Assembly: GCF_035594765.1 (NCBI RefSeq)
Contig: NC_085847.1
Coordinates: forward strand, 5,394,001 to 5,458,000
Reading direction: 5' to 3'
DNA length: 64,000 nucleotides
Origin: Anolis carolinensis
Lineage: Eukaryota
In this document: positions 1,671 through 60,909 of the stretch, piece by piece
Layout of the letters: every line of letters starts with the position of its first letter
Numbering within the stretch: position 1 is the stretch's first letter
Notes under the pieces: generated by a model
Database searches by the model: none
What the model was told of the DNA's origin: nothing
What the model saw: only the letters and a program-made list of their open reading frames with translations
Program-made: the position numbers and the translations under genes

Positions 1671-1713
1671 TACGAATAATGTGGATAATGATCTCTGGAC
1701 TTTGTGCACGTAC

Positions 1714-2511
1714 ATAGTTGTGGAGGAGGCCCTGCGCGGAGAGGCGTAGCTGCTGGACCTGGCACTGGACCTGCGGGTAGAGTGTCCCTGCGCAGCCGGG
1801 CCCGGCCTCCGACCCCTTGACCGGCAGCTGAGCCTCTGCCTTGACCGGTCCGCCCAAGACCTCATTGACGCCCTTGACTTCGATGCTTCTGCGCAAAGGA
1901 AGGGACGAGAGGACGAGGAGGAGGAGGAGGAGGCCGAGGAAGGACGACCCTGGACAAATAATAATAATAATAATAAATAATAATAATATAATAATAATAA
2001 ATAAATAAAATAGAAGAAAATAATAAAATAAAATACTGGAATAATAATAAATAATAATATAATAATAATAAATAATAAATAAATAAAATAGAAGAAAATA
2101 ATAAAATAAAATACTGGAATAATAATAATAAATAATAATATAATAATAATAAATAATAAATAAATAAAATAGAACAAAATAATAAAATAAAATACTGGAA
2201 TAATAATAAATAATAATATAATAATAATAAATAAATAAAATAGAACAAAATAATAAAATAAAATACTGGAATAATAATAAATAATAATAATAATAAATAA
2301 TAATAAATAAATAAAATAGAACAAAATAATAAAATAAAATACTGGAATAATAATAATAAATAATAATATAATAATAATAAATAATAAATAAATAAAATAG
2401 AAGAAAATAATAAAATAAAATACTGGAATAATAATAAATAATAATATAATAATAATAAATAATAAATAAATAAAATAGAACAAAATAATAAAATAAAATA
2501 CTGGAATAATA

Positions 2512-3348: not shown

Positions 3349-3398
<50 letters not shown>

Positions 3399-3414
3399 GA
3401 AGACCTCCTGCCAT
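1714..3414 (-). CDS. LIF/oncostatin-M-like IL-6-family cytokine, partial. Candidate exon 1 is 3414-3405 (MAG+G); exon 2 is 1949-1714; exon 3 would lie left of the window.
   Basis: Exon 2 has a tttgtccag acceptor (phase 1) and a TAT|gtacgt donor (phase 0). It encodes a hydrophobic signal stretch (SSFLGLLLLLLVLSS) and CAGTLYPQVQCQVQQLRLSAQGLLHNY, resembling LIF helix A (C...Q..L...A..LF.LY) with the same phases as LIF exon 2. The exon 1 donor (GAG|gtcttc) is weak. Confidence 0.6.
1960..2945. repeat. ~60-80-bp A-rich tandem repeat in the cytokine intron
   Basis: Recurring AAATAGAACAAAATAATAAAATAAAATACTGGAATAAT. Confidence 0.85.
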
Positions 3415-3586
3415 GGAGTCTTTCCTGTTCTTGGGCTGAAGGCGAAAAGCAGAAGGAGAAGAAGAAGAAAAAGGAGAAAAAGGAGAAGAAGAAGAAGGAA
3501 AAAAAGGAAAAAAAGGAAACTTGGCCGTCCCATGACTTTGACTCAAAGGGAAGGAAAGAAGGACAGCCTCCAGGGCAGAGAACAAG

Positions 3587-3642
<56 letters not shown>

Positions 3643-4538: not shown

Positions 4539-6915
4539 CTTACTCTTATAAACCTGTGGCGCCTGAGAAAGGTAAAACCAATGCCGGAAAGGCAGAAAGA
4601 TATGGCGTCGCAAATTAGTTAAGTTTGAGCTATTTATTTATTTACTTATAGTTCTTACTCTTATAAACCTGTGGCGCCTGAGAAAGGTAAAACCAATGCC
4701 GGAAAGTTTGGGCTATTTATTTATTTACTTATAGTTCTTACTCTTATAAACCTGTGGCGCCTGAGAAAGGTAAAACCAATGCCGGAAAGTTTAGGCTATT
4801 TATTTATTTACTTATAGTTCTTACTCTTATAAACCTGTGGCGCCTGAGAAAGGTAAAACCAATGCCGGAAAGTTTGGGCTATTTATTTATTTACTTATAG
4901 TTCTTACTCTTATAAACCTGTGGCGCCTGAGAAAGGTAAAACCAATGCCGGAAAGTTTAGGCTATTTATTTATTTACTTATAGTTCTTACTCTTATAAAC
5001 CTGTGACGCCTGAGAAAGGTAAAACCAATGCCGGAAAGTTTAGGCTATTTATTTATTTACTTATAGTTCTTACTCTTATAAACCTGTGACGCCTGAGAAA
5101 GGTAAAACCAATGCCGGAAAGTTTGGGCTATTTATTTATTTACTTATAGTTCTTACTCTTATAAACCTGTGGCGCCTGAGAAAGGTAAAACCAATGCCGG
5201 AAAGTTTAGGCTATTTATTTATTTACTTATAGTTCTTACTCTTATAAACCTGTGGCGCCTGAGAAAGGTAAAACCAATGACGGAAAGTTTGGGCTATTTA
5301 TTTATTTACTTATAGTTCTTACTCTTATAAACCTGTGACGCCTGAGAAAGGTAAAACCAATGCCGGAAAGTTTAGGCTATTTATTTATTTACTTATAGTT
5401 CTTACTCTTATAAACCTGTGACGCCTGAGAAAGGTAAAACCAATGCCGGAAAGTTTGGGCTATTTATTTATTTACTTATAGTTCTTACTCTTATAAACCT
5501 GTGGCGCCTGAGAAAGGTAAAACCAATGCCGGAAAGTTTAGGCTATTTATTTATTTACTTATAGTTCTTACTCTTATAAACCTGTGACGCCTGAGAAAGG
5601 TAAAACCAATGCCGGAAAGTTTAGGCTATTTATTTATTTACTTATAGTTCTTACTCTTATAAACCTGTGGCGCCTGAGAAAGGTAAAACCAATGCCGGAA
5701 AGTTTAGGCTATTTATTTATTTACTTATAGTTCTTACTCTTATAAACCTGTGGCGCCTGAGAAAGGTAAAACCAATGCCGGAAAGTTTAGGCTATTTATT
5801 TATTTACTTATAGTTCTTACTCTTATAAACCTGTGGCGCCTGAGAAAGGTAAAACCAATGCCGGAAAGTTTGGGCTATTTATTTATTTACTTATAGTTCT
5901 TACTCTTATAAACCTGTGACGCCTGAGAAAGGTAAAACCAATGCCGGAAAGTTTAGGCTATTTATTTATTTACTTATAGTTCTTACTCTTATAAACCTGT
6001 GACGCCTGAGAAAGGTAAAACCAATGCCGGAAAGTTTAGGCTATTTATTTATTTACTTATAGTTCTTACTCTTATAAACCTGTGGCGCCTGAGAAAGGTA
6101 AAACCAATGCCGGAAAGTTTAGGCTATTTATTTATTTACTTATAGTTCTTACTCTTATAAACCTGTGGCGCCTGAGAAAGGTAAAACCAATGCCGGAAAG
6201 TTTGGGCTATTTATTTATTTACTTATAGTTCTTACTCTTATAAACCTGTGGCGCCTGAGAAAGGTAAAACCAATGCCGGAAAGTTTAGGCTATTTATTTA
6301 TTTACTTATAGTTCTTACTCTTATAAACCTGTGGCGCCTGAGAAAGGTAAAACCAATGCCGGAAAGTTTGGGCTATTTATTTATTTACTTATAGTTCTTA
6401 CTCTTATAAACCTGTGGCGCCTGAGAAAGGTAAAACCAATGCCGGAAAGTTTAGGCTATTTATTTATTTACTTATAGTTCTTACTCTTATAAACCTGTGG
6501 CGCCTGAGAAAGGTAAAACCAATGCCGGAAAGTTTAGGCTATTTATTTATTTACTTATAGTTCTTACTCTTATAAACCTGTGGCGCCTGAGAAAGGTAAA
6601 ACCAATGCCGGAAAGTTTGGGCTATTTATTTATTTACTTATAGTTCTTACTCTTATAAACCTGTGGCGCCTGAGAAAGGTAAAACCAATGCCGGAAAGTT
6701 TGGGCTATTTATTTATTTACTTATAGTTCTTACTCTTATAAACCTGTGGCGCCTGAGAAAGGTAAAACCAATGCCGGAAAGTTTGGGCTATTTATTTATT
6801 TACTTATAGTTCTTACTCTTATAAACCTGTGACGCCTGAGAAAGGTAAAACCAATGCCGGAAAGGCAGAAAGATAGGGCGTCGTAAATTAGTTAAGTTTG
6901 AGCTATTTATTTATT
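4539..6915. repeat. 83-bp minisatellite, ~28 near-identical copies, directly upstream of the HNF1A promoter
   Basis: CTCTTATAAA recurs every 83 bp from 4658 to 6816. The first and last units carry a 32-bp extra segment. Confidence 0.95.
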
Positions 6916-6959
6916 TCTCTCCTTCCTTCGTTCCTTCCTTTCCCTCCCTGTTTCTGTCT

Positions 6960-7075
6960 TTGCGCAACCAGCGCAGGCAGGGTCCAAAGTCCACGGGTTT
7001 TGCTGAGCGCGAGCAGAGTGCAGGCCAAGGCAAGGCCGGCCTAGCTCGCTCGCTCGCTCACTCCCGGGTAAACAC
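6960..7075 (+). promoter_or_regulatory. HNF1A proximal promoter: C/EBP palindrome TTGCGCAA (6960-6967), HNF4 DR1 GGTCCAAAGTCCA (6981-6993), forkhead GTAAACA (~7068)
   Basis: Motifs read directly. An HNF4A DR1 at this position is a known conserved element of the HNF1A promoter. Confidence 0.75.
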
Positions 7076-7157
7076 CAGGTCCGGGACCCGGAGGAGGAGG
7101 AGGAGGAGGAGCAGAGCCAGTCCGCACCGGGACCCCAGTCCGCTGTGGTGGGTGAGG

Positions 7158-14699
<7,542 letters not shown>

Positions 14700-14707
14700 C
14701 AACCATT

Positions 14708-14730
14708 AATAAACAAATGCCCAATTTATT
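14708..14730. terminator. Opposed polyadenylation signals: AATAAA (+) at 14708-14713 for HNF1A and AATAAA (-) at 14725-14730 for C12orf43
   Basis: Both hexamers lie within 10 nt of their respective stop codons. Confidence 0.7.
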
Positions 14731-14736
14731 TATACG

Positions 14737-16914
14737 TCAAGTCGGTCCGACTCCGTCTTGTTTCCCCCTCTTCCTCTTCCTCTTCTTCCGCAAAATGGCC
14801 GCCGGGGATCCGTCGGTCGTGGCGGAAGGCCCGCCCCCCGCTCCGCCCTGCTCTAGGCCACTCCCCTTCAAGATGTCCGCCGCCGTCATGGCCGCCTCCC
14901 GGCAACGGAGCCACTCCTCCCCCGAAGAGCTGGGAAAGGGGGCGGGAAGGTCAGAGTCAGGGCAAGATGGCCGCCCCCAAGGCATCAAATCCAAGATGGC
15001 CGCCCCAAAAAAATTCAAGATGGCCGCCCCAAGGCATGCATTCCAAGATGGCTGCCCCCGATGTAATAATTACAAGATGGATACCCCAAAGGCATTCATT
15101 CCAAGATGGCCGCCCCCAAGGCATCAAATCCAAGATGGCCGCCCCAAAAGAATTCAAGATGGCCGCCCCAAGGCATGCATTCCAAGATGGCTGCCCCCGA
15201 TGTAATAATTACAAGATGGATACCCCAAAGGCATTCATTCCAAGATGGCCGCCCCCAAGGCATCAAATCCAAGATGGCCGCCCCAAAAAAATTCAAGATG
15301 GCCGCCCCAAGGCATGCATTCCAAGATGGCTGCCCCCGATGTAATAATTACAAGATGGATACCCCAAAGGCATTCATTCCAAGATGGCCGCCTCAAAACC
15401 GTTCATTTCCAAGATGGCCACCCCACCCAAGACCCTCAATTCATATAACAATAATAAAATATAAAATAATTAAATAACAATATCATAATAATAATACTGT
15501 AATTCTCACCTCGAGGAGGAGGAGCATCGCCTCTTCTTCCTCACCATGGAAGGCAAGGATTCGGGTTTTTCGGAATTTTCCGGAAGCGACGAGGAGAAGA
15601 GGCGGAACCCTGCGCAGGAAATGACATCACAATTTTTATATAAACATATATATATAATTTTATATATTACTTTATTATATTACTACATTATATATTTTAT
15701 TATTGTAATGTATTTTAGATATATAATTTGTATATATTATAGTATATTATATATATAAAGAAAATACTATAATAATCTAATATGTTAATAATATATTATA
15801 TTATTATACTGTACTTATATTATATTTATATTATTACAATATATTCCTATTACATTATATTACTATACAGTATATAATACTATTATTGTATTGTATGACT
15901 CTATGATATTATATCTTATATAATAAAATAATAATTTTGTATATTTTATAATACAATAACATAAAATTATATATGTAATATTATACAATACAATAGTATA
16001 TAATACTATAATAATGCATTGTAATATAATAATATATTCATAATTATATTATATTATTGCATTACATTAAATTATTTTAGATTACAGTATTATACTGTAT
16101 TACATAATATTTTATTATTATATTGTATACATTTTACATTATATATTATCTTATATTATATTGCGCTATAATTATATATTATTATATTATATTACTATAT
16201 TATTATTTATCCTATATTATTATTATTATTATTATTGTATTAAGAAATACCGTCTCCGGGCGGCTCCGCCCCTTCCTGTTCCTTCTCTATGGTTCCTGGC
16301 GGACGATCCCAGAGCGTCACCGACCTGTGGAGGGAAATTATTCTAATTTATGCGCATACCAAATGAGCAGGGCGCTCCCTCTCTCTGTAGGGAAGCTGAC
16401 CATAGAGACCCAACTGGGAGGACCCAGGAAATTCCTAGAGCGGCAGGAGCAGCCACGCCCCTTACCTGTCCAAGATGGCTGTCAGCTTCTTGGCCACGTG
16501 AGCCTTGAACCCGGCGCTCGTTTGCAGCTCATTTGCATATTCCTCATTAGGGCGGGCTTAAAAGAAAATAAAATTGAATCGTTTTTGTGGAAGTCACGTG
16601 ATTCCTGAAGCCTTCAGAGGCCTTTCACCCCTTTAAACCCCTGTCAGGCCTTTAGACTACAACTCCCGAGAGCCTTTGCCATCCGCCGCGAGGGAAGAGG
16701 CTTCTGGGAGTTGGAGTCCGCTCAGACCGGAAGTAGGCCGCGTTCGAAGCCTACGGCCTTTCCCCGACGCCTTACCGATCGACGGCGACGGGACTCCGCG
16801 GGGAGGGACCCAGGCGGCCTCCCGGGCTCTCTGCAAGGCCTCCGCGTCGTCTTCGTCGCTGCTGCCGCCGCTGCTTCCATTACCGGCGCCATTCTTCTTC
16901 CCGGCCGCTGCCAT
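14737..16914 (-). CDS. C12orf43: Protein CUSTOS, ~198 aa. Exons 16914-16776, 16556-16466, 16324-16251, 15609-15510, 14929-14737. An in-frame upstream ATG is at 16929.
   Basis: Motifs SSDEDDAEALQRAREAA, NELQTSAGFKAHVAKKLTAILD, GFRLFSSS, EEWLRCREAAMTAADIL and a basic tail. GT-AG junctions are in phase (597 nt). Tail-to-tail with HNF1A, as in mammals. Confidence 0.92.
14962..15422. repeat. 139-bp x3 repeat built of CAAGATGG(C) subunits, last intron of C12orf43
   Basis: 17 CAAGATGG occurrences counted. Confidence 0.92.
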
Positions 16915-17261
16915 TTTTAGGAAGGCCATTTTTAGAAGCGCGCATGCGCCAACTTGAGGCGATTTCGGTTTGTTTTCCCCTGCAAAGCGGTGTGCGCATG
17001 CGTGGAAGCGACAAGGTCAGGGAAACGGCCTGAGATGAGGGAGCGCGCATGCGTGAATGCCAGAAAACGCGCATTGGGACGGCTTCGTGTCGAGCGAGTG
17101 CGCCTGCGCGGAAGTGGCGGGACAGTATTGCGGGTGTTGCGGCCTAAAGTGTCCCCCGCAACTTCCGGTTCCGGTGGAAAAAAAAACACCTCAGCGGAGA
17201 GCGGACGAGACTCGTCGCTCGACACGGAAGCGAGCGGAAGTGAGGAGGGGGCCTACATCCG
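16900..17261. promoter_or_regulatory. CpG-rich bidirectional promoter for C12orf43 and RNF185, plus the non-coding first exon of RNF185 (donor ccg|gtgagt at 17261/17262)
   Basis: Several NRF1 sites (GCGCATGCGC ~16940; GCGCATGCG ~16995 and ~17045), GABPA/ETS CGGAAGT (~17109, 17161 reverse, ~17235) and YY1 GCCATTTT. A ZNF143-type ACTACAACTCCC lies at ~16656 in C12orf43 intron 1. Confidence 0.75.
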
Positions 17262-19374
17262 GTGAGTGGGCCTCCTGAGGCTATTGAAGAGCCTCGCAGC
17301 TCCAAAGCCTGGCTGCTTCCTGCCCTGGGAGACCGGGAGGAACCCTCCGATCGTTCGGGGAGTGTTGTTAGCTGGCCCGGGTTGTTCCTTTCCTTGCCGA
17401 CCTCCCGATCAAGGATTCCCCCCCCCCCGCCTTGGGAATGCACAGAAGCAGGCGAAACGTCAGGAGGGAGTGCTGCTGCTGCTGCTTATTGGCCTTAAAG
17501 GTCCCCGGGGAAACTCCTATTATTATTATTCTAATATATGTATATATAAACCCAAAGCAGGCGAAACGTCAGGAGAGAGTGCTGCTGCGCACCTACCATT
17601 ATTATATTCTGTTATTCTATATAATAACATAACAATATATTAATAATATAAAAACAATAATATGTTATATAAACGTAATAAAATAATATATAAATAATAA
17701 TAATAATATATTATAATAGTAATATATAAATGCATTACAATATAGTATCTATAATAATATAACCATATATAATAGTATAATAATCTATAAATGTAATATA
17801 TACATAATGATATAATAATGCTATATCAATGGGATATAATAATATATAAATGTAATATAATATAGATATACATACTAATAGAAAATAATATAATATTTAG
17901 ATGCAATATAAATAGTATCTGTAATAATATAACAATATATAAATAATATGTAATATAATAACAATATATAAATGTAATATATATAAATAATTATATGTAA
18001 ATAATAATAAAATAATCTATAAATGTAATATAATATATACATAATGATATAATAATACTATATACATGTAATATAATAATATAATAATGTAATATAATAT
18101 ATAAATAATAGTATATAAATGTAATATAATATATCCGTAATAATAATACTATATACATGTAATATAATAATATATAAATAAATATAATAATATAAAAATG
18201 TAATATATACATATAATATATAAATGTGATATAATATATACATAATGATATAATAATATTATATACATGTAATATAATATATATGTAATGATATAATAAT
18301 ACTATATACATGTAATATAATAATATATAAATAAATAATATAATATAATAATATAAAAAGTAATATAATATATAAATAATAGTATATAAATGTAATATAA
18401 TATATCCGTAATAATAATACTATATACATGTAATATAATAATATATAAATAAATATAATAATATAAAAATTAATATATACATATAATATATAAATAATAA
18501 TATAATATATAAATGTGATATAATATATACGCAATGATATAATAATATTATATACATGTAATATAATATATATGTAATGATATAATAATACTATATACAT
18601 GTAATATAATAATATATAAATAAATAATATAATAATATAAAAAGTAATATAATATATACGTAATTATATAATAATACTATATACATGTAATATAATAATA
18701 TAATAATGTAATATAATATATAAATAATAATATGATAAAATATAAAAATGTAATATAATATATACGTAATGATATAATAATATAATAATGTAATATAATA
18801 TATAAATAATAGTATATAAATGTAATATAATATATACGTAATGATAATAATGCTATATATATATACATGTAATATAATAATATATATAAATAATATAATA
18901 AAATAATATATAAATGTAATATAATATATACATAATGATATAATAATACTATATACATGTAATATAATAATATATAAACAAAAATACAATATAATAATAT
19001 ATAATACAAATATAATATTATACTATATAAACAACATAATATACTAATGTAACAGCTGTTGTCAGACCCTTTGAAGCAGCCAGGCTTTGGAGCTGCCAGG
19101 CCCTTCACCCAGTGCCTAATATTTAAATCTTTGAGAGACGTAAACATACGTGTGTTTACGTGAACGTGGTTCTGATGCAAGCGTGTGCCAATGGCCCCGG
19201 AGACTCTTTTCCGGGGAAACCAAGGCATCCCTATGGGGATTTCTTGTCTTTTCAAGCAGCACAAGAGGAATCCCATTAATATTATTATTATTATTATTAT
19301 CTGAACGCAAACAGAGGAGATTTTGCCAGCGAGGAGGAGCCCATGCTCGTTCAGGTAATTCAGGCATTTATCCA

Positions 19375-58894: not shown

Positions 58895-60909
58895 CCCCTC
58901 CCCCCCAAAAAATACGTTTGTTTTTCTAATATTTCTACATAAATAAACAACTTGATTAATTAACATGTTGAGAGTTCGAATCCTGAGTCCCTGCCCCCCT
59001 CCTGTTTGACCCCGCCCCTCCCTGTCAATCAACATTTTGATTGACAGACGAGGGGAAAAATATGGAAATAATATTAGAATTTCAATAATAATTCTTTAGG
59101 CCCCGCCCACTTCGTCACTCCACCACTTGACTCCTCCCTTTGAAAGGGGCGGGGTCACATTTGATTGACAAGCAAAATTCTAGAAATAATAGTAAAATGT
59201 TGATTTTATGCATACCCGAATTTCAGTCGCAAGTTAACGATGGAACGTTATCTTTCTTGTTGATTAGTTGATATGAATTTTCTAATTAGTTAGCTAATTA
59301 TGAACTGAATAATCAGTTCAACCGATTAATAGAAATTAATATGATTAATTCAACTGATATTGATTAGCTAATTAATTAGCGATGGATTGCAAGCTAAGTA
59401 GCTAATTGATGTTGGTTATTGTAATTAATTAATATTAATTAGGTATTTAAGTGGCGGTTAATCACTCGTTAATTAGCCAATCAATACCAATTATTAATAA
59501 TTTGTTCCTGAATTCGCTAATTAATTAGCCAATTAATAATTTTGTTGATAGCTAATTAAGGTTAATTAATTATTGCTATTCTATTTTATGGTTTTTTTCT
59601 TAGCTACTGAAAAGGAATTAATTTTTTTAGATGTATAATAATACTAAATGGTTGATTTTTTTGTCTTCCTTTTTAATTAATGGGATTTAATTAATTATTA
59701 GGAGGAAACGATTAATGTCTTTTATATTATATTATTATATATTATATATGTATGTATATATTATATCTTATCCCAAAACGCACTCGGGTTGGAAAATATA
59801 TTCCTGGTTATTTGTTTTAATAAGGATTTTGTTTGTTTGGTTTTTCCTCTCTCTTTTTTTTTGTTTATTTCTTGACAAAACATATGTAAATATATATTAA
59901 AAAAATTGTGTTTTTTTCCCGGAGTTTTCAATTAAAGGCTTTATATAAAGTGTCGTCGTCACTATTTGTAATTTTTTTCCTATTGTGATTTTAATATATT
60001 TAAATTTGATATTTATTTGATATTATTATAAGTATTATTTCAAATAATAGATATTTTTATTTAATTCTTCATTTATTTAGTATTATTATAATTAATACAG
60101 ATATATTAGTATTTGATAATTTTAATTATTCATTTAGTATTATAATTAATATTTAAAAATATATAGTATTATTTGGCCATTATTTCAAATATATATATAT
60201 ATTTGAAAATTAATCTTTATTATTTAATATTATGTTCTATTTTAAAATCATATATATTTTTATTTAATTGTTCATTTATTTAGTATCATTATAATTAATG
60301 TTTAAAAACATTATTTGATCGTTATATTAATTAATAATTATTTTTAATTAATATTTATTATTTAGCTTAAGTACTATTTTAAAATAATATTTTAAATAAT
60401 AGGATTATGATTATTATTTTAAAGAATATATATTATTCTTTATCATTATTTATTTTATTAACATGATTACTACATTTTTATTTAATTCATTTAATATTAT
60501 TACTATAAATATTTATTCATTTAACATTATTACTATATTTTTAAATAATAGGATTATGATTATTATTTTAAAGAATATATATTATTCTTTGATCATTATT
60601 TATTTTATTAACATAATTACTACATTTGTATTTAATTCATTTAATATTATTACTATAAATATTTATTCATTTAACATTATTACTATATTTTTAGTTAACT
60701 AATTTTTTCATTTAATATTATTATAATTGCCATTTTAAATAATATATATTTTATTTGATTATTATTTGTTCGTGTAATATTGTTATAATTACTATATTTT
60801 TATTTATTCATTTAATGTTATAATTACTATATTTTTATTTAACCATTCATTCATTTAATATTATTACAATTACTATTTTAAAATATATATTTTTGTTTAA
60901 TTATTCATT

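What the first reader, a model, noticed from the sequence alone, without database searches (positions are those of the whole stretch)
14697..14739. HNF1A and CUSTOS stop codons only 37 bp apart, with two opposed poly(A) signals between them
Seen: TAA at 14697-14699 (+), AATAAA at 14708-14713 (+), AATAAA at 14725-14730 (-), TGA at 14739-14737 (-). Known: cleavage occurs ~10-30 nt past the hexamer, and mammalian HNF1A has a 3' UTR over 1 kb. Inference: both mRNAs have ~30-40-nt, mutually overlapping 3' UTRs, and each downstream element lies in the other gene's coding exon. This is extreme compaction for a vertebrate, with loss of miRNA control and potential transcriptional collision.
Basis: partly seen in the sequence, partly recalled or inferred. 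Interest (0 to 1): 0.7.

Follow-up and report, generated by a model that had tools for sequence, protein, structure and literature searches.

The report
Anole gene pair 37 bases apart
In the green anole lizard the liver transcription-factor gene HNF1A and its head-on neighbour CUSTOS end only 37 bases apart, and that gap likely serves as one shared two-way 'end of message' signal, a likely anole-lineage shrinkage of a gene overlap already known in humans and mice.

Summary
HNF1A (10 exons, +) and CUSTOS (5 exons, -) are intact, and the CUSTOS protein matches a green-anole record. Their stops are 37 nt apart. The two AATAAA hexamers are the only ones on either strand in 7,727 bp, each 6-8 nt behind its own gene's stop. 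CUSTOS has no other A[AT]TAAA for about 7 kb; HNF1A has a fallback 753 nt away. Public contigs confirm the splices into both last exons, and one contig bridges the spacer, but no poly(A) ends were seen, so the 22-44-nt UTRs remain predicted. The tail-to-tail overlap itself is known: a 2006 table lists it as conserved in human and mouse (2.6 and 1.4 kb of overlapping span), so the collision potential is not new. What is new is the scale. Both proteins are shortened at the C-terminus in both sampled anoles but not in Sceloporus or other amniotes, which points to deletion-driven erosion in the anole lineage. The CUSTOS lysine-rich codons would double as HNF1A's downstream element. Verdict: new variant of a known kind; moderate interest.

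The parts
7158..14699 (+). HNF1A coding span, 10 exons (7158-7423, 8707-8906, 8993-9185, 10251-10471, 10549-10775, 11871-12054, 13900-14049, 14260-14348, 14440-14533, 14620-14699), 567 aa
   Evidence: open frame, GT-AG introns; HNF-1_N, homeodomain, HNF-1B_C; exon 6 100% identical to anole HNF1A-like P0122; last three introns seen as joints
14620..14699 (+). HNF1A last coding exon, ending in TAA at 14697-14699; lacks the last 6 residues and 13 internal residues of other amniotes
14700..14736 (.). 37-nt AT-rich (73%) spacer between the stops; predicted shared poly(A) cassette; holds an imperfect 10-bp inverted repeat (14709-14718 / 14724-14733)
14708..14713 (+). AATAAA, 8 nt after the HNF1A stop; likely HNF1A poly(A) signal
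   Evidence: use not shown
14725..14730 (-). AATAAA, 6 nt after the CUSTOS stop (with an overlapping TATAAA variant starting at 14734); likely CUSTOS poly(A) signal; next A[AT]TAAA on this strand is 6,959 nt away
   Evidence: use not shown
14695..14717 (-). U/GU-rich stretch downstream of the CUSTOS hexamer (55% U); candidate cleavage zone and downstream element, overlapping the HNF1A hexamer and stop
   Evidence: inference
14753..14790 (+). U/GU- then pyrimidine-rich stretch, the antisense of the CUSTOS Lys/Arg-rich codons; candidate downstream element for HNF1A
   Evidence: inference
14737..14929 (-). CUSTOS last exon, ending in TGA at 14739-14737; tail about 55 aa shorter than in other amniotes
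   Evidence: (loose end joins exon 4)
14737..16914 (-). CUSTOS (C12orf43) coding span, 5 exons (16914-16776, 16556-16466, 16324-16251, 15609-15510, 14929-14737), 198 aa (203 from an ATG five codons upstream)
   Evidence: PF23999; P0002 has the same sequence
15453..15474 (+). next AATAAA (15453) and ATTAAA (15469) on the HNF1A strand, inside CUSTOS intron 4; fallback site of the main rival

Best explanation
HNF1A and CUSTOS are intact, spliced, convergent genes of the green anole whose stop codons lie 37 nt apart, and the AT-rich gap likely works as one shared two-way cleavage and polyadenylation cassette that would give each mRNA a 3' UTR of only about 22-44 nt. Shown: gene models, stops, hexamers, splices into both last exons, continuous contig cover across the spacer. 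Inferred: each hexamer recruits the cleavage machinery on its own strand; HNF1A would be cut near 14725-14740 using the antisense of the CUSTOS Lys/Arg codons as downstream element, and CUSTOS near 14715-14700 using the U/GU-rich complement of the HNF1A hexamer region; the mature RNAs would overlap by a few tens of bases. Inferred origin: an ancestral tail-to-tail pair (overlapping in human and mouse) was eroded by several deletions after anoles split from Sceloporus and before the two sampled anoles split; the same process would have trimmed both proteins.
For: Only two AATAAA in 7,727 bp, each on the strand of the gene that ends there and 6-8 nt behind its stop. CUSTOS strand: no A[AT]TAAA for 6,959 nt; only three weak variants (12418, 12351, 10512) before HNF1A intron 1. 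Joints for HNF1A introns 7, 8 and 9 in 2 of 4 laid runs, from two studies; contig 4 of X10 (526 nt) runs HNF1A exons 8-9-10, the spacer and CUSTOS exon 5, then a loose end of which 28 of the 30 letters shown equal CUSTOS exon 4. HNF1A: of 53 hits, 37 carry the terminal ETFI-x-x-Q motif; the 2 anole ones stop there and the 35 others run 6 residues further, with 20 rather than 7 residues before the motif; Sceloporus keeps the long end (P0208). CUSTOS tail from the conserved Trp: 58 and 57 aa in the two anoles, 92-121 (median 112.5) in 16 other amniotes, Sceloporus 106. The human and mouse pair is listed as a conserved cis-antisense pair (PMC1449890 Table S2).
Against: No poly(A) tail or transcript end was observed; all laid runs were contigs, which cannot show ends or strand, and are only guessed to be RNA. 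In X5 an unspliced contig runs from 14619 through the spacer into CUSTOS intron 4, which fits HNF1A read-through as well as pre-mRNA or DNA. An unbroken contig needs roughly 30 nt or more of overlap between the two RNAs (inference, assuming 31-letter words), more than the 19 nt that cleavage 15 nt behind each hexamer would give; so the cuts lie late in the window or some molecules run on. No UGUA element on the CUSTOS strand in 14560-14900. The stop-to-stop distance could not be measured in any other species, so the dating rests on protein ends only. 16 of 53 HNF1A hits lack the terminal motif and were not scored.
Confidence: 0.65

Rival explanations
1. CUSTOS ends in the spacer, but most HNF1A transcripts skip the proximal hexamer and end at the AATAAA/ATTAAA cluster at 15453-15474, giving a UTR of about 0.8 kb antisense to CUSTOS exon 5 and intron 4.
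For: The cluster exists 753-769 nt after the stop. X5 holds an unspliced contig from 14619 to beyond 14960. The contig bridge in X10 sets only a lower bound on the overlap. A long overlap is the state in human and mouse.
Against: The proximal hexamer is canonical and is followed by U/GU-rich sequence at a usual distance. The distal cluster lies in low-complexity AT-rich intron sequence where hexamers abound (724 in the window). X5 also holds unspliced contigs over HNF1A introns 7 and 9, so its unspliced piece need not be mature mRNA.
Confidence: 0.2
2. Both genes run through the spacer and end at non-canonical sites inside each other, so a long sense-antisense overlap as in mammals is kept and the hexamers are by-products of an AT-rich remnant.
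For: Continuous contig cover across the spacer. Given the spacer's own composition, a + hexamer arises in 11% of shuffles.
Against: A - hexamer arises in 1.7% and both in 0.15% of shuffles. An AT-rich island kept only here in GC-rich surroundings itself suggests function. The CUSTOS strand offers no recognised variant for 2.3 kb.
Confidence: 0.08
3. This is a decaying duplicate, and the compaction reflects relaxed selection on a spare copy rather than the working locus.
For: Both proteins are named '-like' and occur twice in the species' records, on contigs of 11,084,792 and 218,106 bp. The HNF-1A_C family is not listed for the green-anole protein.
Against: The two copies differ by 2 residues in CUSTOS and 1 in HNF1A and share the same C-termini. 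Frames are open, the DNA-binding region is almost unchanged and spliced RNA exists. The A. sagrei proteins named HNF1A and CUSTOS have the same short ends.
Confidence: 0.05
4. An assembly collapse removed sequence between the genes.
For: The region is rich in tandem repeats and the window has two N gaps elsewhere.
Against: Contigs of two runs from two studies (X10, X5) cross the spacer with no listed substitution, insertion or deletion there.
Confidence: 0.02

Closest known systems
Human TCF1 (HNF1A) / opposite-strand partner and mouse Hnf1a / 6430539H06 conserved cis-antisense pair (PMC1449890, Table S2)
   Same: HNF1A tail-to-tail with a partner that the mouse row calls a lysine-rich hypothetical protein; reading it as C12orf43/CUSTOS is my inference. 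3' ends overlap.
   Different: Listed spans overlap by 2,611 bp (human) and 1,423 bp (mouse), computed from the table's coordinates; in the anole the stops are 37 nt apart, the predicted overlap is 9-49 nt, and both proteins are shortened.
Convergent (tail-to-tail) cis-antisense pairs of vertebrates in general (PMC1449890; PMC10491648)
   Same: [quoted passage not shown]
   Different: Those figures describe overlaps of transcripts, not stop-to-stop distances; here both UTRs themselves would nearly vanish. I found no distribution of stop-to-stop distances to rank 37 nt against.
Shared polyadenylation regions of convergent genes in Arabidopsis (PMC3032780) and bidirectional termination zones in yeast (bioRxiv 10.1101/2022.11.02.514956); SV40-type bidirectional signals (recalled)
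   Same: One short AT-rich region ends transcripts from both strands; the complement of one signal reads as U-rich sequence for the other.
   Different: Those are compact plant, fungal or viral genomes with mapped ends; this is an amniote locus and its ends are unmapped.

Membership tests
HNF1A (HNF1 homeobox A) | N-terminal dimerisation and POU-like region (PF04814) plus atypical homeodomain | tested here: met
   HNF-1_N E 1e-8 and 1e-36 on exons 1-2; homeodomain split over exons 3-4 (each below cut-off alone); near-identity to HNF1A
HNF1A (HNF1 homeobox A) | Alpha-type C-terminal region (PF04813) rather than HNF1B | tested here: inconclusive
   No Pfam hit on exons 8-10 alone and PF04813 not listed for P0122, but listed for A. 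sagrei P0124; terminal motif aligns with HNF1A; every named hit but one hypothetical fish protein is HNF1A or its fragment
HNF1A (HNF1 homeobox A) | Synteny with CUSTOS/C12orf43 | tested here: met
   Adjacent in the window; both genes on contigs of equal length in A. sagrei, Sceloporus, Crocodylus porosus, Mauremys and Eudromia, an indirect sign
CUSTOS (C12orf43) | PF23999 profile along the protein | tested here: met
   hits on 4 of 5 exons in profile order (each below the whole-protein cut-off alone); P0001 carries PF23999
CUSTOS (C12orf43) | Two C-terminal Lys-rich clusters as in other amniotes | tested here: not met
   anoles keep the first cluster only; this marks a shortened orthologue, not a different family
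Tail-to-tail cis-antisense pair | Two genes on opposite strands, convergent | tested here: met
Tail-to-tail cis-antisense pair | Mature transcripts overlap at their 3' ends | tested here: inconclusive
   one contig links both spliced ends across the spacer, but contigs give neither strand nor ends
Canonical vertebrate poly(A) site (both strands) | AAUAAA hexamer after the stop | tested here: met
Canonical vertebrate poly(A) site (both strands) | U/GU-rich downstream element | tested here: inconclusive
   40-45% U at 30-80 nt behind the + hexamer; 55% U at 0-30 nt behind the - hexamer, 10-30% after that; composition only
Canonical vertebrate poly(A) site (both strands) | Cleavage and poly(A) addition 10-30 nt behind the hexamer | not testable with these tools
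   only contigs were offered; no poly(A) loose end listed

The most novel reading that the evidence does not exclude
Anoles run a master liver transcription factor with practically no 3' UTR: a 37-nt two-way terminator ends both genes, and the lysine/arginine codons of the shortened CUSTOS tail are held in place because their antisense is the HNF1A downstream element, so one gene's protein sequence is constrained by its neighbour's 3' processing. The erosion extends to other genes of this GC-rich, minisatellite-laden segment, and HNF1A polymerase running on through the 2.2-kb CUSTOS gene represses CUSTOS in liver, kidney and gut.
Probability: 0.2. Interest if true: 0.62.

Novelty: new variant of a known kind. 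Interest (0 to 1): 0.36.

Why it matters
If the ends map as predicted, this is a natural experiment in an amniote: a developmental transcription factor whose 3' UTR, long in mammals (recalled), has been reduced to about 30-40 nt, and a minimal vertebrate two-way terminator small enough to mutate base by base. It would let one test whether long UTRs and long antisense overlaps of conserved gene pairs are needed. It also flags lineage-specific erosion of the HNF1A transactivation region and of the CUSTOS tail in a model lizard. It does not reveal a new mechanism: overlapping 3' ends and shared poly(A) regions are known.

Tried and rejected
No whole genome is held for this window, so genome-wide stop-to-stop distances and other copies could not be examined. 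No RNA holder on record was listed (24 runs, 18 holders, RNA status only guessed). 4 of the 24 runs were laid: X13 gave only unspliced pieces and none over 14672-14805, X14 only 14901-14960; both are uninformative. X10 shows no cover of CUSTOS intron 4 or of HNF1A introns 8 and 9; a part without cover proves nothing and is not counted as evidence. Contig depths were not used, as the tool says they cannot rank parts of a gene. A hairpin role for the spacer's inverted repeat was rejected as weak: z -1.93 on + (9 of 200 shuffles as stable) and -0.19 on -; the repeat follows largely from the opposed hexamers. Rfam found 0 matches in 6500-18000. One large deletion removing both protein ends and both UTRs was considered; the several separate in-frame gaps in HNF1A favour stepwise erosion, and the 6-residue loss fits an in-frame slip between the repeated S-x-Q motifs that keeps the old stop (inference). 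An alternative HNF1A end in A. sagrei ordinatus (P0123 stops shortly after exon 6) was noted; P0207 from the same taxon carries exons 7-10 with the short anole end, so this looks like a split gene model. X-linkage of the segment was considered from recalled chicken-anole synteny but not established; the one preprint searched (10.1101/2025.10.06.680020, passages only) does not mention HNF1A. Ten paper searches found no description of the anole locus; the library lacks most subscription papers. The CCIVR2 supplement (1 file) had no hit for the gene names; file 13 of PMC1449890 was not searched and bioRxiv supplements are closed. Earlier scan notes gave nothing.

Full report
Observation. The spacer is 73% AT, while no 37-mer of 13860-14960 that does not touch it exceeds 51%. 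Between 7726 and 15452 these are the only two AATAAA on either strand; placed uniformly, both would fall in the spacer with probability 1.7e-5, and shuffles of the spacer's own letters give both in 0.15% of 200,000 trials. Over the whole AT-rich window an opposed pair is not rare (11 found, 7.25 expected), so the weight lies in the position.

Genes. Ten GT-AG exons from 7158 to 14699 give an open 567-aa frame with HNF-1_N on exons 1-2, a split homeodomain on exons 3-4 and HNF-1B_C on exons 6-7. Five exons on - from 16914 to 14737 give 198 aa with PF23999 CUSTOS hits on 4 of 5 exons in profile order. The CUSTOS last exon is 100% identical to a record named protein CUSTOS-like of Anolis carolinensis; the window's translation equals P0002, and HNF1A exon 6 equals P0122 on a contig of the same length. 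The window is therefore green anole. Near-identical second copies of both proteins sit on a 218,106-bp contig with the same C-termini; whether this is a second haplotype or a duplicate is open.

Alternative ends. On the CUSTOS strand the next A[AT]TAAA after 14730 is 6,959 nt away, in HNF1A intron 1; of 18 recalled hexamer variants only three weak ones (12418, 12351, 10512) lie in between, apart from a TATAAA overlapping the signal itself. On the HNF1A strand the next AATAAA is at 15453, inside CUSTOS intron 4. The proximal site is thus nearly forced for CUSTOS and likely for HNF1A. Cleavage 10-30 nt behind each hexamer (established rule, recalled) gives UTRs of 24-44 and 22-42 nt and an overlap of 9-49 nt. 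One UGUA lies upstream on + (14650), none on - in 14560-14900.

RNA evidence. The run search listed 24 runs, 18 holding the stretch, none on record as RNA. Four were laid, all contigs. Joints matching HNF1A introns 7, 8 and 9 appear in 2 of 4 (X10, X5; two studies). Contig 4 of X10 runs HNF1A exons 8, 9 and 10, the spacer and CUSTOS exon 5, and ends in a loose piece of which 28 of the 30 letters shown equal 15513-15540, CUSTOS exon 4. Both last exons are therefore used as modelled and the spacer is no assembly artefact. A contig across two genes shows no single transcript, and no poly(A) end was listed. If contigs are built from 31-letter words, the bridge needs about 30 nt or more of overlap (inference), which fits cuts late in the 10-30-nt window or some read-through, and sets no upper bound. 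Against my reading, X5 holds an unspliced contig from 14619 into CUSTOS intron 4; X5 also covers HNF1A introns 7 and 9, so this may be pre-mRNA or DNA. X13 and X14 were uninformative.

Evolution. Of 53 HNF1A hits, 37 carry the terminal ETFI-x-x-Q motif: the two anole proteins stop there, the 35 others continue for six residues and have 20 rather than 7 residues between the preceding motif and this one; 16 hits lack the motif (fragments or other ends) and were not scored. The anole proteins share further in-frame gaps through the C-terminal half. Sceloporus HNF1A-like (P0208) keeps the long end. For CUSTOS I aligned the query with 17 of the 120 listed hits (287 found), chosen as full-length named squamates plus a crocodile, turtle, bird and mammal: the tail from the conserved Trp is 58 and 57 aa in the two anoles and 92-121 aa (median 112.5) in the 16 others, including Sceloporus (106) and Phrynocephalus (106); the second Lys-rich cluster is missing in anoles. 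Both genes lie on contigs of equal length in several sauropsids, an indirect sign of synteny. I infer stepwise, deletion-biased erosion in the anole lineage; the inter-stop distance itself could not be measured in any other species. The segment has GC3 of 0.90 (HNF1A) and 0.76 (CUSTOS) and minisatellite-filled introns. Other genes in the window give mixed controls (names recalled from the translations): stop to first A[AT]TAAA is 47 nt for a PATZ1-like gene, 112 for an RNF185-like gene and 1,229 for a PIK3IP1-like gene, and the latter two converge with stops 2,679 nt apart. Compaction is therefore not uniform.

Mechanism. Most likely each polymerase transcribes through the spacer, the hexamer on its strand is recognised, and cleavage follows a few tens of bases behind the stop; the complement of one signal and the partner's coding sequence supply the U-rich downstream elements. 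The steps from hexamer to cleavage are inferred. Polymerase run-on would enter the partner's gene body, and CUSTOS spans only 2.2 kb, so interference is plausible but untested. Confidence 0.65; the main rival (HNF1A ending near 15470) 0.2.

Comparison with what is known. Table S2 of PMC1449890 lists human TCF1 with an opposite-strand partner and mouse Hnf1a with a lysine-rich hypothetical protein as a conserved cis-antisense pair; the listed spans overlap by 2,611 and 1,423 bp (I saw passages of the main text and of that table; naming the partner C12orf43 is my inference). The same paper gives median exon overlaps of 159 and 172 bp. PMC10491648 (abstract, passages and one results section read) reports that ends of convergent coding genes cluster across 11 species and may share poly(A) signals. 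PMC3032780 (abstract only) shows shared polyadenylation regions in Arabidopsis; bioRxiv 10.1101/2022.11.02.514956 (search listing only) reports bidirectional termination zones in yeast. PMC5464927 (passages) describes Custos as a beta-catenin partner. bioRxiv 10.1101/2025.10.06.680020 (passages) did not help place the locus. Ten searches found no account of the anole arrangement; subscription papers and bioRxiv supplements were not visible and could bear on that.

Verdict. The feature is real, and its class is known, as is the overlap of this very pair in mammals. The new elements are the extreme, probably anole-specific collapse to 37 nt, the matching shortening of both proteins, and the possible dual use of CUSTOS codons as HNF1A's downstream element. 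New variant of a known kind; interest 0.36, rising to about 0.6 if the ends map as predicted and the dual use is shown.

Noticed in passing
window 14050-14259 (HNF1A intron 7): A contig covers the whole intron from exon 7 into exon 8 in X10 and X5 beside the spliced joint; possible intron-7 retention, reminiscent of a mammalian HNF1A isoform (recalled).
   Followed up: no
window 14113; 15511-15512: A>G at 14113 in all 3 runs that cover it; the first two loose letters of the X10 contig differ from the window at the 3' end of CUSTOS exon 4, probably an allele.
   Followed up: no
P0001/P0002, P0122/P0175: Both genes occur twice in the species' records (contigs of 11,084,792 and 218,106 bp), differing by 2 and 1 residues; second haplotype or duplicate unknown.
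   Followed up: partly
window 10549-10600 (+): Both anoles carry a Gln-rich insertion of about 13-17 aa at the start of HNF1A exon 5, just after the homeodomain, absent in the other aligned amniotes.
   Followed up: no
window 16557-16775 (-): Green-anole CUSTOS lacks about 15 residues that A. sagrei has, and up to about 27 that other squamates have, at the exon 1/2 border; possible loss of a small exon.
   Followed up: no
window 16914-17270: CUSTOS starts head-to-head with a likely non-coding first exon (donor near 17261, +) of a RING-finger gene (RNF185-like, name recalled; RING hit at 20635-20790): a probable bidirectional promoter of about 300 bp.
   Followed up: partly
window 58892-58947 (+); 27316-27436 (+); 29998-28768 (-): Stop to first A[AT]TAAA: 47 nt for a BTB/zinc-finger PATZ1-like gene, 112 nt for the RNF185-like gene, 1,229 nt for a PIK3IP1-like gene (names recalled).
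   Followed up: partly
window 25437-27120: The acceptor and first codons of the RNF185-like last exon recur several times in tandem ahead of the complete exon, near an N gap.
   Followed up: no
window 7790-8543, 9606-10197, 10913-11729, 12430-13856, 14963-15425: Each long intron of HNF1A and CUSTOS intron 4 holds its own minisatellite (43, 167, 29, 27 and 139-nt units), while the other HNF1A introns are 77-210 nt.
   Followed up: partly
window about 39740-39880: A long near-perfect inverted repeat flanks a (TA)n run just upstream of the PATZ1-like gene.
   Followed up: no
window 1680-1973 and 3392-3594: GC-rich, coding-looking islands upstream of HNF1A that I could not assign; Pfam gave nothing convincing for 1750-1950.
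   Followed up: partly
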